Shown here: one piece after another, positions 25,681 to 53,048 of the stretch
Layout: every line of letters begins with the position of its first letter
Numbering within the stretch: the stretch's first letter is position 1
Virus record (IMG/VR): IMGVR_UViG_3300045109_000002
Location: 1-55,239 of that record
Length of the DNA: 55,239 nt
Source: a virus
Lineage: Duplodnaviria > Caudoviricetes
Direction: 5' to 3' (one strand)
Made by a program: the position numbers and the translations under genes
Notes under the pieces: generated by a model
Seen by the model: the letters and a program-made list of their open reading frames with translations, nothing else
Databases searched by the model: none
Told to the model about the DNA's origin: nothing

Positions 25681-25936
25681 CTATGATGAGATGATGGCCG
25701 ACCGGCCTGAGAAATTCAACGCTAATGAGGTCGGCTATCGCAAAGCACCCCGTGGCTCGGAGTACCGGTGCGAGAATTGTCTGCACTTTTATTCACGTCA
25801 AGTCGACGGCTTTGGTGTGTGCGAGATATTCAGGTCACCTCAAACCGACATCTCCGGGGTGGACCCAAAGTGGTTATGTGACTGGTGGACCCAAGATGGT
25901 GAAAACTTCCCGCTAGTCAGAAAGGAGGCCGAGTGA
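25580..25936 (+). CDS. HiPIP-like four-Cys protein
   Basis: GGAGG RBS and GTG start; VGY...RCENCLHF...CEIF...VDPKWLCDWW. Confidence 0.65.
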   Translation: MTENSERAERISHALKQRDGRDDPEQGSPITKADYDEMMADRPEKFNANEVGYRKAPRGSEYRCENCLHFYSRQVDGFGVCEIFRSPQTDISGVDPKWLCDWWTQDGENFPLVRKEAE

Positions 25937-26438
25937 ATGACACTAAAGGAGTTGGCCCTACTTACAGGGCGAGCTATCTTGTACATTCTAACCTTGATAG
26001 GGACCGTGATCGGACTACTCATGTGGCCCTACATTGAACACCTTCGGGCTAAGTAACGCCACCAACTAAGTAACACCACCTCAACAACTTACGCTTAGCT
26101 AGATATTCCCAGAGAATTTTTACGTAGACCAGGATAGAAAATTCGCCGCAAGCTCGCGTGTGCGTGCGTGGGTCGCGTGTGAGGTGATGGGGTGCCCTGG
26201 TGGGGTGAACGTTTGCGAGAGGGTGTGGTCAGGTGGGCACACTGTGTGGCACATAGTGTGCGTGTACGCGCGGGCGCGCGAGCGGGTAATGAGAGTACTG
26301 AGCGTACTAGCGAAATTGTACTAGTACTCACAAACTTTGGAAAAGGGTTGCACATTTGTGGCACTTTTGTTCCGCAAAGTGGCAAAAGTTTTCGTGGACA
26401 CTTTTTGTTAACTTGCGCGTTTTGAACGACTTGCGTTT

Positions 26439-26454
26439 TGGCATGCGCTTTGCA
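26439..26454 (+). promoter_or_regulatory. sigma54 (-24/-12) promoter
   Basis: TGGCATG-CGCT-TTGCA matches the consensus TGGCACG-N4-TTGCW with exact spacing. Confidence 0.6.
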
Positions 26455-26542
26455 AGAGGCATTTGCGTTCGTGTTTTTCACGGACGGGGAATTTCAGGCA
26501 TGCGGGACAGCCAAGTCGGCGCCCTGACAAAGGAGAATCACC

Positions 26543-26725
26543 ATGGTTTGCGTTATCGACAAAGCGAAGGGTACACTCACAGTGACGATTCCGTTGCAGG
26601 AAGCAAAAGCATCGGCATCTGGAAAGACTCTGGTCATCGCCAGCACTCATGGCAATCAGGCGACGGGCATCAACATGGACGGGCGGCCTGTGATTCTTGG
26701 GCTGAACGCCTATCTGCGTGTCTGA
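26543..26725 (+). CDS. Small early protein (60 aa)
   Basis: AAGGAG RBS; SASGKTLVIASTHGN pattern seen in small conserved beta proteins. Confidence 0.8.
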   Translation: MVCVIDKAKGTLTVTIPLQEAKASASGKTLVIASTHGNQATGINMDGRPVILGLNAYLRV

Positions 26726-26754
26726 AATACCACAGGGTGTGTCCATTCTGCCAC

Positions 26755-26780
26755 AGGGGCAGCCTGCACGGTTGCCCCCT
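26755..26780 (+). terminator. Hairpin (terminator or processing site)
   Basis: GGGGCAGCC/GGTTGCCCC stem with a weak U-tract. Confidence 0.4.
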
Positions 26781-26836
26781 TGATGTTACCTTTTCACCCA
26801 TTCTGTAACCTTTTGAACCATTCGCAAAGCGTGCGA

Positions 26837-27750
26837 GAGCGTGCACGGGAGGGCATGGGCGGTTGACGTGCTTCTCCGCGTGCGCTCCCCTGAGCGGGAC
26901 GCTGGCATGGTTGGGTTGGCTCGATAAGCGGCCCTAGATTGCCAGTGACGTGTAGGGTTAGGTTGGAGCGTCGTGAGGTAACAGAGACTCGTCACTGCCG
27001 GGGTGAGTGCTAGACTTGGCTCACCAGGTGAACGGCCCTAGACAAGCCGTGAGAGTGGCAGACAAGATGGTAGCGGCAACTGTTGTGAGGGTCATGGACG
27101 CGCTTGAATAGCAAGCGCACGACACCATACAAGCCCCTGAGCAGGACTGGACAGGCGGCACCACACAACAAGACCCCCGCGCTAACGGAAACTCGATGGC
27201 TGTGAACAGCCGATGGTATGGTGCTTCGGGGACGCAAAACGTCCCCGTTTGGGAGCATAGCTCCCATGTGTTCAGGTGTGCCCTCTCGGGCGCATTGGCG
27301 AACAAAAGCCCCTACGATGGAGAGTCAATCAGGAAGTGGACCTGTGTCCGTCATCTGTGCGGCCTACTCCCTGTGATGCAGCAGGGCAGGCGACAGACCG
27401 TACACAGCACTCCACATTAGCGTGCGTGTCTGTAGTTGCCAACAAACGAGAGACGCATTGCGGTTCCTGTAGGCCGATAACCCTAGGTGAGCGTTGCTAG
27501 CGGGCGCGCTGTTGAAGGCGCCTGTGAGGCCGTGACCGATGTGTGTCGTGGGTTTGACCTGTAGTTCATGCAACACACGCAGTAACGGGACGCACTCCAT
27601 GGCGGGGTACGCAACACCATACAAGTCTGAGAATGGACATGACCTCATAACTGTCAAGGTTGTGCGAGGACCTGGTGAGTGTGTGCTCTTGTGGCAACCT
27701 GAGCGTACCGATACCGGCGAGCGCAATACAATGGTGTAGAGGCATGGTGT
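26837..27750 (+). ncRNA. Candidate large structured ncRNA, family unknown
   Basis: No credible ORF; many consecutive hairpins and a long-range helix with G-U pairs on the plus strand. Boundaries approximate. Confidence 0.55.
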
Positions 27751-28133
27751 ATATCAGGCGATTTTTGTGGATTGTGTTGTGTGATGAGAGTGCGAGCCGG
27801 GAGCATACAGACACGTATGACTTCTCAACCTGTGTCGTTGGACGCGAGACAGGCGCGACAAGCGTTACGGCTCTCATCCGCAGCATTGATGGCATGTGCC
27901 CCTGTGAGGGTAGGTGTTATGAATGGTGCGCGATTTTGGCTAGATTTTTCAGCAATTTGCGTTTCGGTAGCGGGCTAGGATGTGCTTTGCTGGCAAGGGG
28001 ATGCGTTTTGTGAGGCTTTTGCAGGCTTTTTGGTGCTGAGAGTAGCAAAGCAGAGTTTTGCACAGCGCAAATGGGCTAAACTCATGAGAGTACTGGTACT
28101 GTGTTGAATCTGAACGAAAGGAGGACATCGGTC

Positions 28134-28262
28134 ATGATGTTTAGGACTAGCATACGCAAGTTGGTGCGCCAGTCTGTGGCTCAGGCGCTGGCAGCAGCGA
28201 AGGCGTCGGTGCATCCGAAGATTAGGCGCATCGAAGGGTTTGCACTCGTCAGGACCTTCTGA
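28134..28262 (+). CDS. 42-aa early peptide (not in the ORF track)
   Basis: AAAGGAGG RBS; MMFRTSIRKLVRQSVAQALAAAKASVHPKIRRIEGFALVRTF. Confidence 0.6.
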   Translation: MMFRTSIRKLVRQSVAQALAAAKASVHPKIRRIEGFALVRTF

Positions 28263-28422
28263 AGTTGTGAGGTTCGTGAAGTGCTGACGGTAGGGCTGAT
28301 TGCGATGCACGCCGGTCTGTGTAGCATACGGTGCACAGAAGGTAGCTAAAGGGACGCGGTCAGCCTGTCCGTGAGCACTTTTGAGGGTGTGCTAGAGGGT
28401 GCTCACAGAGGGAGACATATGT

Positions 28423-28617
28423 ATGACACGTAAGGTCAAGTGGTTGCTGTTGGGCATGCTGGTGGTTGTGAGTACTGCGGTGGCCGACCGGGTACCTGCT
28501 TTCTATAAGACGGTCAGGCTCAGCCCGAGGGAGGTGCTCATCAGTTGTAAGGAAGATGCCAGTCCGAAGGTCGATGTGAAGGGAGAGTTTGTGGTGGTCT
28601 CCTGTCCAGCACCGTGA
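28423..28617 (+). CDS. Small secreted protein
   Basis: GGAG RBS; signal peptide MTRKVKWLLLGMLVVVSTAVA; two Cys in the mature part. Confidence 0.6.
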   Translation: MTRKVKWLLLGMLVVVSTAVADRVPAFYKTVRLSPREVLISCKEDASPKVDVKGEFVVVSCPAP

Positions 28618-28712
28618 TGAAGTGAGTGTTGACAGTGGGCCTGGTGACAGGGGTTCGCTGTGAGCGCTCGCTGGTCAACCGCTAGTCAATGGTGCTCAAA
28701 AGGAGGACGTGC

Positions 28713-43508: not shown

Positions 43509-43823
43509 GTGACCATCCCCGACAAAGAGAAAGAACGCATCCATGAACTCCTCGGCGAATACCACCGCCTCGCCCATGCCATGCAGTCCGGCGTGAAGTG
43601 GGAACAGGAGCACGGGGTGGACGACGGCTCGCCTAAGCACATGCGTGTAGGAATCAACAACGCCATGCGCGACCATGGTTCGCTGGCGGCCCTGTTGATT
43701 CGTAAGGGCATCATCAGCGACCTTGAATACGCCGAAGCCATCGTTGTGGGCATGCGCGAGGAGGTGGCCATGTACGAAAGACGTATCAGCGAGAAGACCG
43801 GCCGGGAGGTGCATTTGGTATGA
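43509..43823 (+). CDS. Hypothetical phage protein
   Basis: AAGGAG RBS and GTG start; HAMQSGV...PKHMRVGIN. Confidence 0.65.
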   Translation: MTIPDKEKERIHELLGEYHRLAHAMQSGVKWEQEHGVDDGSPKHMRVGINNAMRDHGSLAALLIRKGIISDLEYAEAIVVGMREEVAMYERRISEKTGREVHLV

Positions 43824-44113
43824 CCATCACCCACGAACATGCTCTCCCCGAGAGCCACTGCCCCTGGTGCGGTTACACGATCGACGCCGTAACCTGCCTC
43901 GACGAACGAGGCAACGAGCACGACAAAATGCCCCAGCCGGGGAACTTGACCGTGTGTGTGAAATGCGCGCACATTTGTGCCTTCGCGGACGACCTGACCT
44001 TGCGTACCCCCACCGACACAGAGCTGGAGAGTATGCCCACCGCCCTCATGCGCCTGCTCTCCAAGGTGCAGGCGGCGGTGCGCTTGGCGAGAGCCAAGGA
44101 GGCACCTCAATGA
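43820..44113 (+). CDS. Zn-ribbon hypothetical protein
   Basis: CPWC...PQPGN..VCVKC. Confidence 0.65.
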   Translation: MTITHEHALPESHCPWCGYTIDAVTCLDERGNEHDKMPQPGNLTVCVKCAHICAFADDLTLRTPTDTELESMPTALMRLLSKVQAAVRLARAKEAPQ

Positions 44114-44682
44114 GCGAGTGCCGCTGCCTGTTGGTCGCACCTGAACGCCTGCCCGACGAGATGCTGTGGTCCATGGTGACCAATGGCAGGAAGGATGTAT
44201 GTGAAGGGGCCTTCGACGAAATCCTCAAACGCTACCTCAAATTGGTGCGCCATATCGTGTGGCGCATCCTGCGCAACGTGGTCAACAACCACAGCGACCT
44301 GGACGACGCTGTCCAGAACGTGTTCCTTGAGGTCTTCAGGGCGCGACACAAGTTCGATGCTTCGCGTGGCTCCTTCAAGGTCTGGCTAGTCGGGTATGCC
44401 TACACGCGGACCTTTAACTACCTGAGAGCGCTGGTACGCACCGAGATTCACAGCGCCCACCCCGTGGATGGCGCCTACGAGAGCCACCTCGACAAGCGCA
44501 TCTGGGCCAGGGAATTGTTCGCCATGCTCAACACTCGCCAGAAACAAGCGGTGAAGCTGGTCGCCCTGGCGGGCTTCACCCTGGAAGAAGCCGCGCGGGC
44601 CATGGGCCACACCCTAGCTGCCACCAGGCACTATTGCTACAAAGGACTCGCTAAGTTGCGGGCTACGGAGGCTGTCAAGTGA
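44110..44682 (+). CDS. ECF-type sigma70 factor
   Basis: Region 2 DDAVQNVFL..FR...FDASRGSFKVWL; region 4 GFTLEEAARAMG...TRHYCYKGLAKLR. Confidence 0.88.
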   Translation: MSECRCLLVAPERLPDEMLWSMVTNGRKDVCEGAFDEILKRYLKLVRHIVWRILRNVVNNHSDLDDAVQNVFLEVFRARHKFDASRGSFKVWLVGYAYTRTFNYLRALVRTEIHSAHPVDGAYESHLDKRIWARELFAMLNTRQKQAVKLVALAGFTLEEAARAMGHTLAATRHYCYKGLAKLRATEAVK

Positions 44683-48026: not shown

Positions 48027-48281
48027 ATGCACAAAGTAATGCGAAACTACTGGATTGGCGTGGCGCTGATGGTTGGCAACACGCTGCTGTTGGCTCTCAA
48101 CGTTTATAGGCACAACTGGTGGGCAGTAGCGGTGAATGGCGCCACCGCCATCGGCGTAGCGCTAGGCATGAAATGGCTGATCGAGACGGCCCATTTTGTC
48201 GGCTACGGTGATGGGCTCGACTGGGCCAAAGACACGTTGCGAGAGACTATGAATGCAGCCACAAGGTCCACATTGCGGTAG
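48027..48281 (+). CDS. Two-TM small membrane protein
   Basis: Two hydrophobic segments; GGAGG RBS. Confidence 0.6.
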   Translation: MHKVMRNYWIGVALMVGNTLLLALNVYRHNWWAVAVNGATAIGVALGMKWLIETAHFVGYGDGLDWAKDTLRETMNAATRSTLR

Positions 48282-51200
48282 TTGCCCTTACAGCTCAGGC
48301 GAACGCTTCATCCCTGCCGATGGCAGTGGCAGCAGTGGCATCCTGCTGGTTGGCGACAGCCCATGGGTTGACGAAATAGCCGCTGGGCGCCCTTTCGCTG
48401 GCGCCGCTGGCCGCACCCTCGACCGCATCCTCTCGCTCATGCCTGGCGGTGGGATGGCTCGTGGCGACCTCACTGTTGCCAACACCATCTGGTGCAAGCC
48501 TCCATACCTGCGCTGGATGGACAAGCCCCATCGTGACGCTGTTGCGGCCATCGAACACTGCCGCCCCAACCTGGACGAGCTTATCTACGCACGCAAGCCC
48601 AAGGTCATCGTCCCCATGGGCAACGTGGCACTGAGGAGGGTTTGTGGCGTATCGGGCATTGAAGAACGCGCTGGCTACGTCCTACCAACGCCTTATGGCA
48701 TCCCTGCGGTGCCTACGTATCATCCGGCTTATATTCAGCGTGGTAAGCAAAACCTCGTACCAGTTGTCCTTTGGGCGCTCCAGCGGGCGGGGCAGATTGC
48801 CGATGGTTCATTCACTCCATCTGTATATTCGCTGCTGGTGGACGCTCCTCCCGAAAGTGTGCGCGATTACCTGGCGTCATCGGGAAGCCATATACCAAGC
48901 CTCTTCGTTGACATTGAAACTCCCGAATCCGCTGCCCTAGACGAGGAGGACCTGGAGGAGGATGGCCCATCGTATACCATCGTCCGTGCAGGTTTCTCGG
49001 TGCGTGCTGGGACGGCCTGTTCATTCCCGTGGGAGCAGCCTTACATAGACATCATGCGTGAGGCCCTCTCGCGCGCTGAGGAGGTCGTAGAATGGGCGGA
49101 CCATCACTTCGATACCCGAAGACTTGCTGCGGCGGGCCTCGCGATGCCTGCCAGGATTGTATCGGCCATGTGGGCGTGGCACTGGTTGCAAAGCGATTTG
49201 CGGAAAGGGTTAGGTCTGGTGGCGCCATTTTTCTATGCCGGGCCGCCTTGGAAGCACTTGAGCGCAGCCGAGCCGGGGCGCTACAACGCCTTAGACAACG
49301 CGATTGGATTCGACTGCTACTCAGGTACACGGGCAGCGTTACAATCCCAGGGAAGGTGGGACGCCTTTAACAGGCACTGCGTAGACTTCGCTCCTGTCCT
49401 CCAAGCGATGGGCCGCAAAGGCTTGCGTATCGACCGTGCTTACCAGACGGCCTTCATGGCTCAACTTGAGACTGAGTGGGACGTATCGAACACCAAGTTG
49501 CAGACCTTCGTCCCTGACGCCATCAAACCACGCAAACAGTGGAAACGCCCCCCGAAGGACTTGACCGGCGTCACCGAACTGCCTGTGCCTTCACCAGAGC
49601 AACAAATGATTCTCACCGGCGCCGCAGATAAACTAGGTGAGCTACTGGCCGACCTGTCTGCACCTGGTGCTGGTCGCTCGTCGTCCTACCCGGACGACTC
49701 GCTCCATATAACTGAGAGTGCTCACAAGCGCCTGACCGTCACACCTTACCGTTACGAACGCATCGAGCCTTTCAATCCCGACAGTTGGCCGCAAGTGACG
49801 GCCCTCGCGAAGCACTTAGGTATCAAACTGCCACCGCGTGAATCGGCCAAGGAGAGCGACGAAGAAGCCCTCGCAACGGACAAGAAAACTCTAGGCAAGT
49901 ACGCCAAAAAGTACCCCGCCATCGCCTGCATCCTGAAGTGCCGCGAACGCTGGAAGCTCATTTCGACTTATAAGTGGAAGCTCGACGCAGACGACCGCGT
50001 CCACTATGTGCTGGGGTACCACCCGTCGACATGGCGTTTATGTATCGCTGAAGGCACTCCCGTGGAGATTGCCAGAAACCTACGGACTAACCCTGACGCA
50101 CCACCTATTGAAAAGGTGAAGCCTGGTGATTGGGCTTACACCTATGATAACGCTGGTAGGCTTACCGTTCGTAAGGTTGCATGGGTCAAAAAGACCGGCA
50201 TCCGTAAAGTGGTCCGTGTCCATTGGGAGGCAGGGTACGGGCCGACAATGCGGCAGGGTTATACTGACATGACGCCGGACCACCTTGTGCGGCTTGCCGA
50301 CGGTTCATGGAAAGAGGCTCAACGATTAACCCCCTATAATAAAGGGACGTGGAAGCACCGAGGTTATCCTAAAGGCGGCAAAGGTGATTCTTTGACGGCC
50401 ATGAAGCGTGGTGTCACGACTGCTCTAGGATATTCCATACTGCACACCACAGGGCGTCGTGAAGCCGTTAGAGACAACCGCGTCGTCTACGAAGGAGCTA
50501 CCGGTAAATACGCGGAGCACGTCCACCATATAGACGGTGACAAACTGAACAATCTACCAGACAACCTGCAAGGGTTGGACCGTGACGAACATGGGCACTT
50601 AACAGGGTCGGAGAGGTGGGCAAGGGAGGTAACAACAGCCAAGCGCGTAGGCCCAATGCAGGCACAAGCCCGTAAAGAGCTGCGAGAGCATCTGGAGCGT
50701 ACAAAGTATCCGAAGCCAGTACCATACTGCCGGTACGTACCGAACAACCATCGCGTCATGAGAGTCGAGAAGTTGGATACCCCTGTTCCGGTGTACGATT
50801 TGGAGGTAGAAGAGACTCATAACTTCATTGCTGGAGAAATATGCGTACACAACAGTTGCCGAAACGCAAACCTGCAAACCATCCCCAAGCGCAGCGACCT
50901 AGCGCGCCTCTTCAGGCGCATGATCGTCGCGACACCGGGCCACAAACTGATCGAGGGAGACTCGGCGGCGATAGAGGCAGTCTTGGTTGGCTACTTCGCC
51001 GGGTCGGCACGATACAGGCGGCTGGCCAAGTGTGGCGTACATGGGTGGCTTACAGCGAAACTGCACGGATTGGAAATCCCCCTGACCCTGGAGGACTCCG
51101 AGTTGCAGAGGCAATCGAAGCTCTCGAAGAAACAGTGGCCCGAGGATTACGAGAAGATGAAACGCGTGGTGCACCTGTCAAATTACCTCGGCACAAAAAG

Positions 51201-51741
51201 GCGCATCCATGAGGAATATCCTGACGACTTCCCGACTGAGCGCGAAGCCGCTAAGCTACAGCAATTCTACCTTGGCAGCGACCCCGGCCAAGACGTGCGC
51301 GCCTGGCAAAAAGCCACCGTCGAACTGGCCCATGCCTCGAAAGCGCTCGAAAACAACTTCGGCCTGCGCCACCGTTTTTATAGCCTGTATGCCTGGAACG
51401 CCCGCCGCTCGACGTGGGAATTCGGCGACGACGCCAAGCGGGCTGTTGCGTTCCGCCCACAGTCTGCTGCTGCGGCCATCCAGCGCATCATCGTGCAACG
51501 CCTGCTGGAACGCATGCCTCAAGCGCTCCAATGGCTCTGCCTGCTGGTCCACGACTCCATCATCGCCGACGTGCCGGACGCTCATGTCGATGAGTACTGT
51601 ACAGCCCTCTACGAAGCGATGACCTCGCCCATCGACGAACTCGAAGGGCTGACCATTGGCGCTGAGATGCTGATGGGCGACAACGCCGCGCCAGCCGACC
51701 AGGACAACGAAAAGGGCATGCGCGAGTGGCTGCCACGTTAG
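48253..51741 (+). CDS. polA: Family A DNA polymerase with N-terminal family-4 uracil-DNA-glycosylase domain and 3'-5' exonuclease; contains an intein
   Basis: UDG: CGSC, GDSP...GRPFAGAAG, TYHPAY. Exonuclease: DIET, HFD, YNALD. Polymerase: motif A EGDSAAIE, motif B KRVVHLSNY, motif C VHDS. Confidence 0.92.
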   Translation: MQPQGPHCGSCPYSSGERFIPADGSGSSGILLVGDSPWVDEIAAGRPFAGAAGRTLDRILSLMPGGGMARGDLTVANTIWCKPPYLRWMDKPHRDAVAAIEHCRPNLDELIYARKPKVIVPMGNVALRRVCGVSGIEERAGYVLPTPYGIPAVPTYHPAYIQRGKQNLVPVVLWALQRAGQIADGSFTPSVYSLLVDAPPESVRDYLASSGSHIPSLFVDIETPESAALDEEDLEEDGPSYTIVRAGFSVRAGTACSFPWEQPYIDIMREALSRAEEVVEWADHHFDTRRLAAAGLAMPARIVSAMWAWHWLQSDLRKGLGLVAPFFYAGPPWKHLSAAEPGRYNALDNAIGFDCYSGTRAALQSQGRWDAFNRHCVDFAPVLQAMGRKGLRIDRAYQTAFMAQLETEWDVSNTKLQTFVPDAIKPRKQWKRPPKDLTGVTELPVPSPEQQMILTGAADKLGELLADLSAPGAGRSSSYPDDSLHITESAHKRLTVTPYRYERIEPFNPDSWPQVTALAKHLGIKLPPRESAKESDEEALATDKKTLGKYAKKYPAIACILKCRERWKLISTYKWKLDADDRVHYVLGYHPSTWRLCIAEGTPVEIARNLRTNPDAPPIEKVKPGDWAYTYDNAGRLTVRKVAWVKKTGIRKVVRVHWEAGYGPTMRQGYTDMTPDHLVRLADGSWKEAQRLTPYNKGTWKHRGYPKGGKGDSLTAMKRGVTTALGYSILHTTGRREAVRDNRVVYEGATGKYAEHVHHIDGDKLNNLPDNLQGLDRDEHGHLTGSERWAREVTTAKRVGPMQAQARKELREHLERTKYPKPVPYCRYVPNNHRVMRVEKLDTPVPVYDLEVEETHNFIAGEICVHNSCRNANLQTIPKRSDLARLFRRMIVATPGHKLIEGDSAAIEAVLVGYFAGSARYRRLAKCGVHGWLTAKLHGLEIPLTLEDSELQRQSKLSKKQWPEDYEKMKRVVHLSNYLGTKRRIHEEYPDDFPTEREAAKLQQFYLGSDPGQDVRAWQKATVELAHASKALENNFGLRHRFYSLYAWNARRSTWEFGDDAKRAVAFRPQSAAAAIQRIIVQRLLERMPQALQWLCLLVHDSIIADVPDAHVDEYCTALYEAMTSPIDELEGLTIGAEMLMGDNAAPADQDNEKGMREWLPR
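50041..50853 (+). mobile_element. Intein (271 aa) with HNH endonuclease domain
   Basis: Starts CIAEGTPV, block B TPDH, HVHHIDGDKLNN...NL, ends VYDLEV..THNF...VHN/S; interrupts the conserved RL|SxxxxNLQxIP motif. Confidence 0.92.
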
Positions 51742-52916: not shown

Positions 52917-52990
52917 GGCCTTGTAGCTCAACCGGATAGAGCAGCGGAGTTCTAACCCGCCGGTAGCGAGTTCGACTCTCGCCAGGGCCA
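52917..52990 (+). tRNA. tRNA-Arg (anticodon UCU), CCA not encoded
   Basis: Acceptor GGCCTTG/CAGGGCC, D arm GCTC/GAGC with A20, anticodon loop GTTCTAA, T arm GCGAG-TTCGACT-CTCGC. Confidence 0.88.
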
Positions 52991-53048
52991 CTAGTTTTCA
53001 CGGTGAGCCTCCCGTGACAAGAAGGAGGCAGGTTAGCCACGATGGCTT

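What the first reader, a model, noticed from the sequence alone, without database searches (positions are those of the whole stretch)
26837..27750. About 0.9 kb non-coding region that looks like a large structured RNA
Seen: in a gene-dense genome this stretch has no RBS-supported ORF but has back-to-back helices: 26837-26887 (long, G-U rich), CAGTGACG/CGTCACTG (26943/26990), GGTGAG/CTCACC (27002/27020), ACGGC/GCCGT (27032/27046), GCGCTTG/CAAGCGC (27100/27112), CGGGGACG/CGTCCCCG (27227/27240), TGGGAGC/GCTCCCA (27250/27260) and GTGTGCCC/GGGCGCAT (27276/27288). A long-range pairing of 27082-27096 with 27638-27651 closes a ~550-nt domain. Known: phages carry large ncRNAs of this size (GOLLD, ROOL). 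I could not find group I/II intron, RNase P or tmRNA signatures. Inference: a possibly new large phage ncRNA expressed early.
Basis: partly seen in the sequence, partly recalled or inferred. Interest (0 to 1): 0.8.

Follow-up and report, generated by a model that had tools for sequence, protein, structure and literature searches.

The report
New large structured phage RNA
This gene-free stretch of an uncultured bacterial virus encodes a roughly 930-base, intricately folded non-coding RNA that matches no catalogued RNA family and is kept in its closest relatives, adding a new example to the very short list of giant structured RNAs whose jobs are still unknown.

Summary
The finding holds. Window 26837-27766 (+ strand) is a non-coding, highly structured RNA gene of about 930 nt in a 55-kb IMG/VR phage record.

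Homologous stretches exist in three further contigs. These represent two more phage lineages plus a near-copy of one of them.

On the 4-sequence alignment, RNAalifold gives 216 pairs in 39 helices:
- 96.1% of cells are paired.
- 72 pairs changed on both sides. Column-shuffled alignments give 22.6±3.6, and slid-partner controls give 2-12.
- Consensus energy is -217.9 kcal/mol, against -132±7 when shuffled and -126 on the opposite strand.
- G·U outnumbers A·C by 30-39 to 0-4 per sequence, so the + strand is the RNA.

There is no codon periodicity and no conserved ORF. Nothing in Rfam 15 matches, including GOLLD, ROOL, introns, RNase P and tmRNA.

Two, including the long-range closure, are replaced by better-supported pairings.

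In all lineages the RNA follows a 60-aa gene behind a sigma54-like promoter.

Function is not shown. My best guess is a trans-acting folded RNA of the "ornate" GOLLD/ROOL kind. The family is narrow and expression is untested. The scan also flagged a look-alike on another genome (e1-6308350).

The parts
26439..26454 (+). sigma54-like -24/-12 promoter element TGGCATGCGCTTTGCA, about 90 nt upstream of the small gene
   Evidence: Pattern hit with 1 mismatch. Such hits are not enriched in the window (7 found, 7.05 expected), so the case rests on conservation. L002/L011 have TGGCAAGCGCTTTGCA, and by eye the L004 contig has a GG/GC element at the same spacing in a shifted register. Function is inferred.
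26543..26725 (+). 60-aa gene directly upstream of the RNA (all-beta protein with an SGKTLVIASTHGNQ motif, no known family)
   Evidence: Codon periodicity 36/25/11. 27 homologues; relatives in 130 viral stretches and at least 585 genome stretches. No Pfam or PHROG hit. AF2 pLDDT 93, with no PDB fold match at E<=0.001.
26756..26778 (+). terminator-like hairpin between the small gene and the RNA, with a weak T tail
   Evidence: L002 has a hairpin plus TCTTTTT at the same place (alignment). In the L004 contig the RNA begins within about 10 nt of the stop codon.
26837..27766 (+). the structured non-coding RNA (whole consensus model, 216 pairs in 39 helices)
26843..26881 (+). 5' hairpin (12 bp, G-U rich)
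   Evidence: Helices 2-3; 4 pairs changed on both sides.
26882..26971 (+). long irregular stem domain (7+14+5 bp); its apex carries a 40-nt insertion in L002/L011
   Evidence: Helices 4-8; 9 pairs changed on both sides.
26975..27059 (+). most sequence-conserved core: a small hairpin with the loop GGUAACAGAGAC, then a three-way junction (26991-26996/27054-27059; hairpins 27003-27024 and 27032-27050)
   Evidence: Helices 9-13. 80.6% identity to L002 over window 26930-27217, against 68.8% for the packaging genes. Model R1.
27070..27211 (+). branched domain (27070-27076/27177-27182; 27081-27093/27159-27170 with 7 compensatory pairs; inner hairpins) plus two small hairpins
   Evidence: Helices 14-20.
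27216..27622 (+). central domain closed by long-range helices 27216-27224/27614-27622, 27308-27312/27604-27608, 27317-27322/27595-27600 and 27324-27333/27466-27474
   Evidence: Helices 21-32; helix 21 has 5 of 9 pairs changed on both sides.
   Evidence: Gap in L002, L011 and L004 at alignment columns 458-499.
27625..27759 (+). 3' domain: one long irregular hairpin of five helical segments with the apex GUGGCAAC
   Evidence: Helices 33-39; 12 pairs changed on both sides. Model R2.
26977..26982 (+). GGYAAC tag 1 (hairpin loop; GGCAAC in L004)
27075..27080 (+). GGCAAC tag 2 (junction)
27693..27698 (+). GGCAAC tag 3 (apex of the 3' domain)
27435..27442 (+). invariant hairpin loop GUUGCCAA, complementary to the GGYAAC tags (6 bp with tag 1, 7 bp with tag 3): candidate tertiary or inter-molecular contact
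   Evidence: A U-to-C change in L004 keeps the pair with tag 1. Complementarity of this length is common by chance, so this is a lead only.

Best explanation
Window 26837-27766 (+ strand) is the gene for a roughly 930-nt non-coding RNA of a family not in Rfam.

**Architecture.** It folds into a multi-domain structure:
- a 5' hairpin;
- a long stem domain;
- a highly conserved three-way-junction core;
- a branched domain;
- a large central domain closed by three long-range helices;
- a long 3' hairpin.

Lineage-specific hairpin inserts sit at the periphery.

**Transcription (inferred).** It is most likely made as the 3' part of, or by read-through from, the transcript of the 60-aa gene just upstream, which starts at a conserved sigma54-like promoter.

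**Mode of action (analogy only, about 0.35-0.45 within this explanation).** The folded RNA probably works in trans during infection as a compact 'ornate' RNA of the GOLLD/ROOL kind. That means binding, holding or imitating some host or phage macromolecule, possibly as a multimer. The three conserved GGYAAC tags and the complementary GUUGCCA loop would serve as tertiary or inter-molecular contacts, or as protein sites.

**Shown:** non-coding, conserved, covarying structure, strand, no known family. **Inferred:** promoter, co-transcription, trans action, the contacts.
For: **Homologues.** L002 (same contig also as L003/L005/L010/L036), L011, and L004 (same contig also as L013).

**Alignment A4.** 216 pairs in 39 helices, 96.1% of 853 cells paired.
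- 72 pairs changed on both sides, against 27.8±3.7 in 500 partner shuffles (0/500 reach it) and 2-12 with partners slid by 1-3 columns.
- 40 column shuffles that keep gap and conservation patterns give consensus energy -132.1±7.3 (minimum -149.7) against -217.9 observed, and 22.6±3.6 compensatory pairs (maximum 30) against 72.

**Strand.** The reverse-complement alignment folds to -126.4. G·U counts are 37/39/39/30 against A·C 2/0/0/4 in the four sequences.

**Not coding.**

**Selection.** The RNA aligns along its whole length, while most of the flanking non-coding DNA does not. The 5' core is 80.6% identical to L002, against 68.8% for the packaging genes.

**No known family.**. No blastn match in 50,697 phage records.

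**Synteny.** Promoter, 60-aa gene, then RNA in all lineages.

**Analogy.** ROOL and GOLLD are large phage/prophage RNAs of unknown function that form RNA-only cages held by kissing loops and A-minor contacts (passages of bioRxiv 10.1101/2024.12.08.627333).
Against: - Only three independent lineages, from closely related phages (TerL 83-91% identical). Event counts are therefore small and an R-scape-type test has no power.
- The structure was predicted on the same alignment on which pairs were counted. The column-shuffle control addresses this circularity but does not remove it.
- Single-sequence folding excess is weak (z -1.29 to -2.49).
- No expression data.
- The sigma54-like match is at chance frequency in the window.
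- A terminator-like hairpin lies between the small gene and the RNA in two lineages, so co-transcription is uncertain.
- No invariant unpaired run contains a self-complementary 4- or 6-mer that would point to homo-oligomers.
- 7-nt complementarity between loosely unpaired windows is expected by chance: mean 7.4 per shuffle.
- Unlike what the paper says of GOLLD and ROOL, the RNA is not next to tRNA genes. The only tRNA is 25 kb away.
Confidence: 0.85

Rival explanations
1. A giant cis-acting element. The structure is the 3' UTR of the 60-aa gene's mRNA, or the leader of the early genes downstream. It would control stability, termination/antitermination or translation of that transcript rather than act in trans.
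For: It sits directly behind the small gene in all three lineages, within about 10 nt of the stop codon in the L004 contig. It is on the same strand as the downstream genes. Terminator-like hairpins lie at its 5' side.
Against: - About 930 nt with 39 helices, invariant loops and long-range closures is far more than known bacterial cis-regulators need (my knowledge).
- About 350 nt of unconserved spacer follows the RNA before the next RBS-supported ORF at 28135. This spacer carries the same GAGAGTACTG word as the region upstream of the first promoter (D13).
- The 60-aa gene occurs in hundreds of phages and prophages with no recognisable copy of this RNA.
Confidence: 0.12
2. A replication-related transcript. 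This would be a structured primer or origin RNA (ColE1 RNA II-like logic) made at the junction between the divergent packaging and early modules.
For: It lies in the largest non-coding region of the genome, between divergent gene blocks. The phage encodes its own family A DNA polymerase.
Against: No iterons or AT-rich unwinding region were seen in the repeat and composition scans. GC skew shows no switch here. Invariant loops and multi-way junctions along 900 nt are not needed for priming (my knowledge).
Confidence: 0.05
3. A highly diverged member of a known class: GOLLD, ROOL, a group I/II intron, RNase P RNA, tmRNA or a known ribozyme.
For: Its size and phage origin resemble GOLLD and ROOL. 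By recall only, a few short words resemble RNase P RNA.
Against: - cmscan of all 4227 Rfam 15 families finds nothing inside the RNA at E<=10 in the window. Nothing consistent appears in the homologues; the one weak hit is manA at 16.2 bits against a gathering score of 55.2, in L036 only.
- RF00010 searched alone gives 0 matches at E<=10, while the control genomes ring in 11 of 14.
- ARAGORN finds no tmRNA.
- The flanks are not exons of one gene.
Confidence: 0.03
4. Not an RNA at all: a conserved DNA element (pac/cos site, operator array) or an overlooked protein gene.
For: It lies near the terminase genes. GTACT repeats nearby suggest protein-binding DNA.
Against: - The G·U versus A·C asymmetry and the strand-specific consensus energy make sense only for RNA.
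- There is no codon periodicity and no conserved ORF.
- Indels of 40-42 nt fall in helix tips.
Confidence: 0.02

Closest known systems
[quoted passage not shown]
   Same: A phage-encoded non-coding RNA of 800 nt or more. It has dozens of covarying helices, variable peripheral parts and no known function (passages of bioRxiv 10.1101/2024.12.08.627333).
   Different: There is no sequence or structure match to the Rfam model; all families were scanned. This RNA is not beside tRNA genes. It follows a small protein gene and a sigma54-like promoter. Multimer formation is untested.
ROOL RNA (Rumen-Originating, Ornate, Large)
   Same: A large ornate RNA of phages and prophages. It is thought to act without a dedicated protein, and its 5' and 3' parts are intertwined by long-range pairings. 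Here the central domain is closed by long-range helices.
   Different: This RNA is about 350 nt longer than ROOL (my recollection of ROOL's size, about 580 nt). There is no Rfam match. No covariation-supported pseudoknot was found, only one candidate loop-loop contact.
Other undescribed large viral RNAs noted by this scan (e1-3418048, e1-5868726; AI notes)
   Same: ORF-free stretches of about 1 kb in viral genomes with covarying structure and no Rfam family. One note describes short sequence tags that occur twice.
   Different: Apart from e1-6308350, no sequence relationship was found. These notes are unchecked by me.

Membership tests
GOLLD / ROOL / OLE / HEARO / raiA and all other Rfam 15 families | Match to the family's covariance model at or near its gathering score | tested here: not met
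   - Window at gathering scores: only the tRNA at 52917-52990.
- 25900-28700 at E<=10: two hits of 19 bits or less, both outside 26837-27766.
- Homologous loci: nothing at gathering and nothing consistent at E<=10.

That GOLLD, ROOL and OLE profiles are in Rfam is stated. For HEARO and raiA it is my recollection.
GOLLD / ROOL | Genomic association with tRNA genes or tRNA islands in phages (as described) | tested here: not met
   The only tRNA (Arg-TCT) is at 52917-52991, 25 kb away.
GOLLD / ROOL | RNA-only homo-oligomeric cage held by kissing loops and A-minor contacts | not testable with these tools
   Only leads exist. An invariant GUUGCCA loop is complementary to the GGYAAC tags. No invariant unpaired run contains a self-complementary 4- or 6-mer.
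Group I / group II self-splicing introns | Catalytic-core match (Rfam intron models) and flanking exons that join into one gene | tested here: not met
   No Rfam match. The upstream flank is the end of a complete 60-aa gene, and the downstream flank is unconserved spacer.
RNase P RNA (bacterial type A) | Match to RF00010 | tested here: not met
   0 matches at E<=10 in the whole record, with 4 candidates scored. The control genomes ring in 11 of 14.
tmRNA | tRNA-like domain plus tag reading frame | tested here: not met
   ARAGORN finds one tRNA and no tmRNA in the window.
Generic class 'large structured non-coding RNA' | Conserved secondary structure with compensatory changes, strand-specific, non-coding | tested here: met

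The most novel reading that the evidence does not exclude
This would be a new class of self-organising 'ornate' RNA machine. The ~930-nt RNA would assemble, alone or with the small all-beta protein encoded just upstream, into a defined higher-order particle. The three invariant GGYAAC tags and the single complementary GUUGCCA loop would provide one intramolecular and one or two intermolecular contacts. The phage would use the particle early in infection to trap or imitate a host component. Alternatively, it could be a new large ribozyme.
Probability: 0.15. Interest if true: 0.85.

Novelty: new variant of a known kind. Interest (0 to 1): 0.64.

Why it matters
To my knowledge, bacterial and phage non-coding RNAs longer than about 500 nt with conserved, elaborate structure form a very short list: rRNAs, group II introns, OLE, GOLLD, ROOL and a few others. 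Those examined by cryo-EM turned out to form unprecedented RNA-only assemblies.

A further class of about 930 nt, with a clear domain structure and a defined genomic setting (small gene plus sigma54-like promoter), offers three things:
- another test case for what such RNAs do in phage infection;
- a ready substrate for in-vitro structure work, since the sequence alone suffices, as it did for the metagenomic GOLLD env-38 in that paper;
- a sign that uncultured phages hold more such classes than current RNA family libraries list.

Its narrow distribution and unknown host limit immediate biological testing.

Tried and rejected
**Widening the family**
- Exact and degenerate DNA patterns in viral contigs re-found only the contigs of L002 and L004. 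The 14 new stretches (L172-L185) did not match R2 at E<=1. One (L176) gave 13.8 bits with R1, E 0.22, which I take as chance.
- The metagenome scan gave 4 stretches: L010 (same contig as L002), L011 (a new near-relative), and L009 and L012. By blastn, the last two share only the 21-23-nt pattern.
- The genome scan gave 0.
- An nhmmer profile of A4 against all 171 loci held then, also run with --max at E<=50, found only the known copies.
- Models R1 and R2 were run over 86, 79 and 14 sources. Only the window, L036 and L013 matched strongly.
- The R1 hits in L156 (19.5 bits) and L019/L021 (15.2 bits) lie inside 466-aa and 206-aa ORFs. I rejected them as chance.
- R1 and R2 over the whole records behind L006, L007, L008, L014 and L015 found nothing. 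An empty answer there shows little.
The contigs that encode the closest small-protein relatives (P0002 97%, P0004 80%, P0003 76%, P0006 68%) could therefore not be fetched. They probably hold further copies.

**Expression**
- The look-up of sequencing runs, kind rna: no RNA holder was listed.

**Is the RNA linked to the 60-aa gene in general?**
- No. In most of the loci with that gene, an ORF of 90 aa or more starts within a few hundred bases downstream.
- An Rfam scan of 20 such loci found only 3 tRNAs.

**The small protein**
- No Pfam or PHROG family.
- The Atlas gave only 'hypothetical protein' clusters.
- A confident AF2 model has no PDB fold match at E<=0.001.
- A resemblance to CsrA that I recalled was not borne out: Pfam returned no family at all for this protein.

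**Features inside the RNA**
- Conserved palindromic loops as a dimerisation signal: none.
- Seven-nucleotide loop complementarity is not rarer than chance.
- Repeats found only in the window (CCCCTGAGCGGGAC twice, ACACCATACAAG twice) and the alternative pairing of GTATGGTG with 27123-27130 are, by eye on A4, not conserved in L002 or L004.

**Literature**
- Searches turned up no description of this RNA. They are word searches and cannot exclude one.
- I read only passages of bioRxiv 10.1101/2024.12.08.627333. For the other papers I saw search listings and abstract starts only. Supplements were not opened.

Full report
**What the window is.** It is a complete IMG/VR virus record of 55,239 bp, estimated 95% complete.
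- Head, portal and terminase genes lie on the minus strand up to about 24.7 kb.
- Non-structural genes lie on the plus strand from about 25.4 kb. They include an AAA ATPase, a sigma factor, and a family A DNA polymerase with UDG, HNH and intein parts.
- The large terminase is only 26% identical to its best match among 50,697 deposited phage records. This is a phage far from cultured ones.

**The observation.**
- Between the 60-aa gene at 26543-26725 and the next RBS-supported ORFs (28135-28262 and 28424-28617, read) there is no credible gene.
- Substitutions between the window and its three homologues show no codon periodicity (96/92/87, 86/81/86, 98/82/96). The 60-aa gene next door shows 36/25/11 and 37/18/11.
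- The largest ORF inside, 120 aa on the minus strand, has no similarity to the ORF at the same place in L002. The L004 copy has no ORF above 84 aa.
- Folded alone, the sequence has a modest energy excess: z -2.43 on the plus strand and -1.67 on the minus strand, with 20 shuffles. The homologues give -2.49 and -1.29.

**Homologues.**
- A neighbouring 126-aa protein led to one related contig, L002. The terminase led to two: the same contig with TerL 91% identical, and L004 with 83%. Three more distant contigs (38-40%) lack any similarity to the region.
- A degenerate 21-nt pattern found one further short metagenome contig, L011, a near-relative of L002.
- Against L002, the 5' core of the RNA (window 26930-27217) is 80.6% identical, compared with 68.8% for the packaging genes. 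Most of the non-coding DNA on either side does not align.
- Against L004, the similarity runs in blocks from 26946 to 27658.
- The multiple alignment shows conserved blocks along the whole 0.9 kb, interrupted by indels of 40-60 nt that are not multiples of three.

**Structure and covariation.** RNAalifold on the four sequences (three independent lineages) predicts 216 pairs in 39 helices.
- Counted on that alignment, 96.1% of 853 cells are standard pairs, and 72 pairs show a change on both sides.
- Shuffling the 3' partners among sequences gives 27.8±3.7 such pairs (0 of 500 reach 72). Sliding the partners by 1-3 columns gives 2-12.
- The structure was derived from the same alignment, so I added a control that repeats the whole procedure on 40 alignments. 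Their columns were shuffled within classes of equal gap and conservation pattern. Consensus energy was -132.1±7.3 kcal/mol (best -149.7) against -217.9 observed. Compensatory pairs were 22.6±3.6 (maximum 30) against 72.
- The reverse-complemented alignment folds to only -126.4, no better than the shuffled alignments.
- In the consensus pairs, G·U occurs 37, 39, 39 and 30 times in the four sequences, while A·C, its image on the other strand, occurs 2, 0, 0 and 4 times. The RNA is therefore read from the plus strand.

**Architecture** (window coordinates).
- A weak 3-bp closing helix at 26837-26839/27765-27766.
- A 5' hairpin at 26843-26881.
- A long irregular stem at 26882-26971, whose tip carries a 40-nt insertion in L002.
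- A small hairpin with the conserved loop GGUAACAGAGAC.
- A three-way junction at 26991-27059. This is the most conserved part.
- A branched domain at 27070-27182, whose 12-bp helix has 7 compensatory pairs.
- Two small hairpins.
- A central domain at 27216-27622, closed by a 9-bp long-range helix (5 compensatory pairs) and two further long-range helices. It holds lineage-specific inserts at 27225-27266, about 27338-27415 and about 27522-27581.
- A long 3' hairpin at 27625-27759.

Two are not kept in the homologues and are replaced by pairings that covary: CAGTGACG/CGTCACTG and the 27082-27096/27638-27651 closure.

**Known families.**
- Nothing in Rfam 15 matches. At gathering scores the only hit in the window is a tRNA.
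- At E<=10 the two weak hits in 25900-28700 lie outside the RNA.
- The homologous loci give nothing at gathering and nothing consistent at E<=10.
- RNase P type A, searched alone, gives no match at E<=10, while 11 of 14 control genomes ring.
- ARAGORN finds no tmRNA.
- blastn finds no similar DNA in the deposited phage records.
- Word searches of the literature found no description. Such searches cannot exclude one.

**Distribution.** All further attempts to widen the family failed: nhmmer, two partial covariance models, five viral pattern scans, one metagenome scan and one genome scan. Details are under Tried and rejected. The family is known from three closely related phage lineages only.

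**Context.**
- In all lineages the RNA follows the 60-aa gene. It lies within about 10 nt of the stop codon in the L004 contig. In the window and in L002 it follows a terminator-like hairpin.
- About 90 nt upstream of that gene is TGGCATGCGCTTTGCA, a near-consensus sigma54 -24/-12 element. It is conserved in L002 and L011 and, in a shifted register, in the L004 contig. The match alone is at chance frequency in the window.
- The 60-aa protein is a real, widespread phage and prophage protein. It has 27 relatives in the protein database, and relatives in 130 viral stretches and at least 585 genome stretches.
- It has a confident all-beta model but no known family or fold match.
- It mostly occurs without any recognisable copy of this RNA or a long ORF-free stretch behind it. 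It is therefore unlikely to be a dedicated partner.

**Internal signals.**
- Invariant unpaired runs include GUUGCCAA (27435-27442), GAUAACC, AACAGA, UAGAU and the apex GGCA.
- GGYAAC occurs at three homologous places in every sequence (four in L004), against about 0.55 expected (P about 0.02 per sequence).
- Its complement GUUGCC occurs once, in an invariant hairpin loop. That loop can pair 6 bp with the first tag, where a U-to-C change in L004 keeps the pair, or 7 bp with the apex of the 3' domain.
- Complementarity of this length is common by chance. These are leads for tertiary or inter-molecular contacts, not findings.

**Interpretation.**
- With high confidence, the region is the gene of a large structured RNA of a family not yet catalogued.
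- What it does is not shown. By size, ornateness, phage origin and lack of an obvious partner, it resembles GOLLD and ROOL. These form RNA-only cages and have unknown functions. It is not a member of either family.
- I therefore favour a trans-acting folded RNA made with or just after the small early gene.
- The rivals, in falling order of likelihood, are a giant cis-regulatory UTR, a replication-related transcript and a diverged known ribozyme.

**Limits.**
- Three lineages only.
- No expression data: no RNA holder was listed.
- Full-length covariance models could not be built.
- Supplements of papers were not available.

Noticed in passing
window 26543-26725: The 60-aa all-beta protein (motif SGKTLVIASTHGNQ) belongs to a very widespread phage and prophage family. 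It has relatives in 130 viral stretches and at least 585 genome stretches across many phyla. It has no Pfam or PHROG family, and its confident AF2 model (pLDDT 93) has no PDB fold match.
   Followed up: partly
window 26289-26330 and 28084-28100: GTACT-containing repeats (GAGAGTACTG and others) lie upstream of the sigma54-like promoter and again upstream of the next small gene. The related contigs have GTACT..GAGTACT at the same place. They may be operator or enhancer sites of a phage regulator.
   Followed up: no
window 28135-28262: An ORF of about 42 codons with a strong AGGAGG ribosome-binding site lies in the otherwise empty spacer after the RNA (read). It falls below usual gene-caller limits.
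   Followed up: no
window 26087-26197: A non-coding stretch upstream of the promoter region is 76.5% identical to the L004 contig but was not found in L002. Its role is unknown.
   Followed up: no
window 48253-51741: A 1162-aa protein combines a UDG-superfamily domain, a family A DNA polymerase, an HNH endonuclease and an intein splicing domain. It is a polymerase interrupted by an intein.
   Followed up: no
window 43723-44682: A phage-encoded sigma-factor-like protein (PHROG 1740, E 3.4e-16). Beside the sigma54-like early promoter, it suggests staged use of the host RNA polymerase.
   Followed up: no
L036 4715-4838 (RNA homologue of the L002 contig): A weak manA-RNA match (16.2 bits against a gathering score of 55.2, E 2.1) falls inside the RNA in this lineage only. 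I take it as chance.
   Followed up: no
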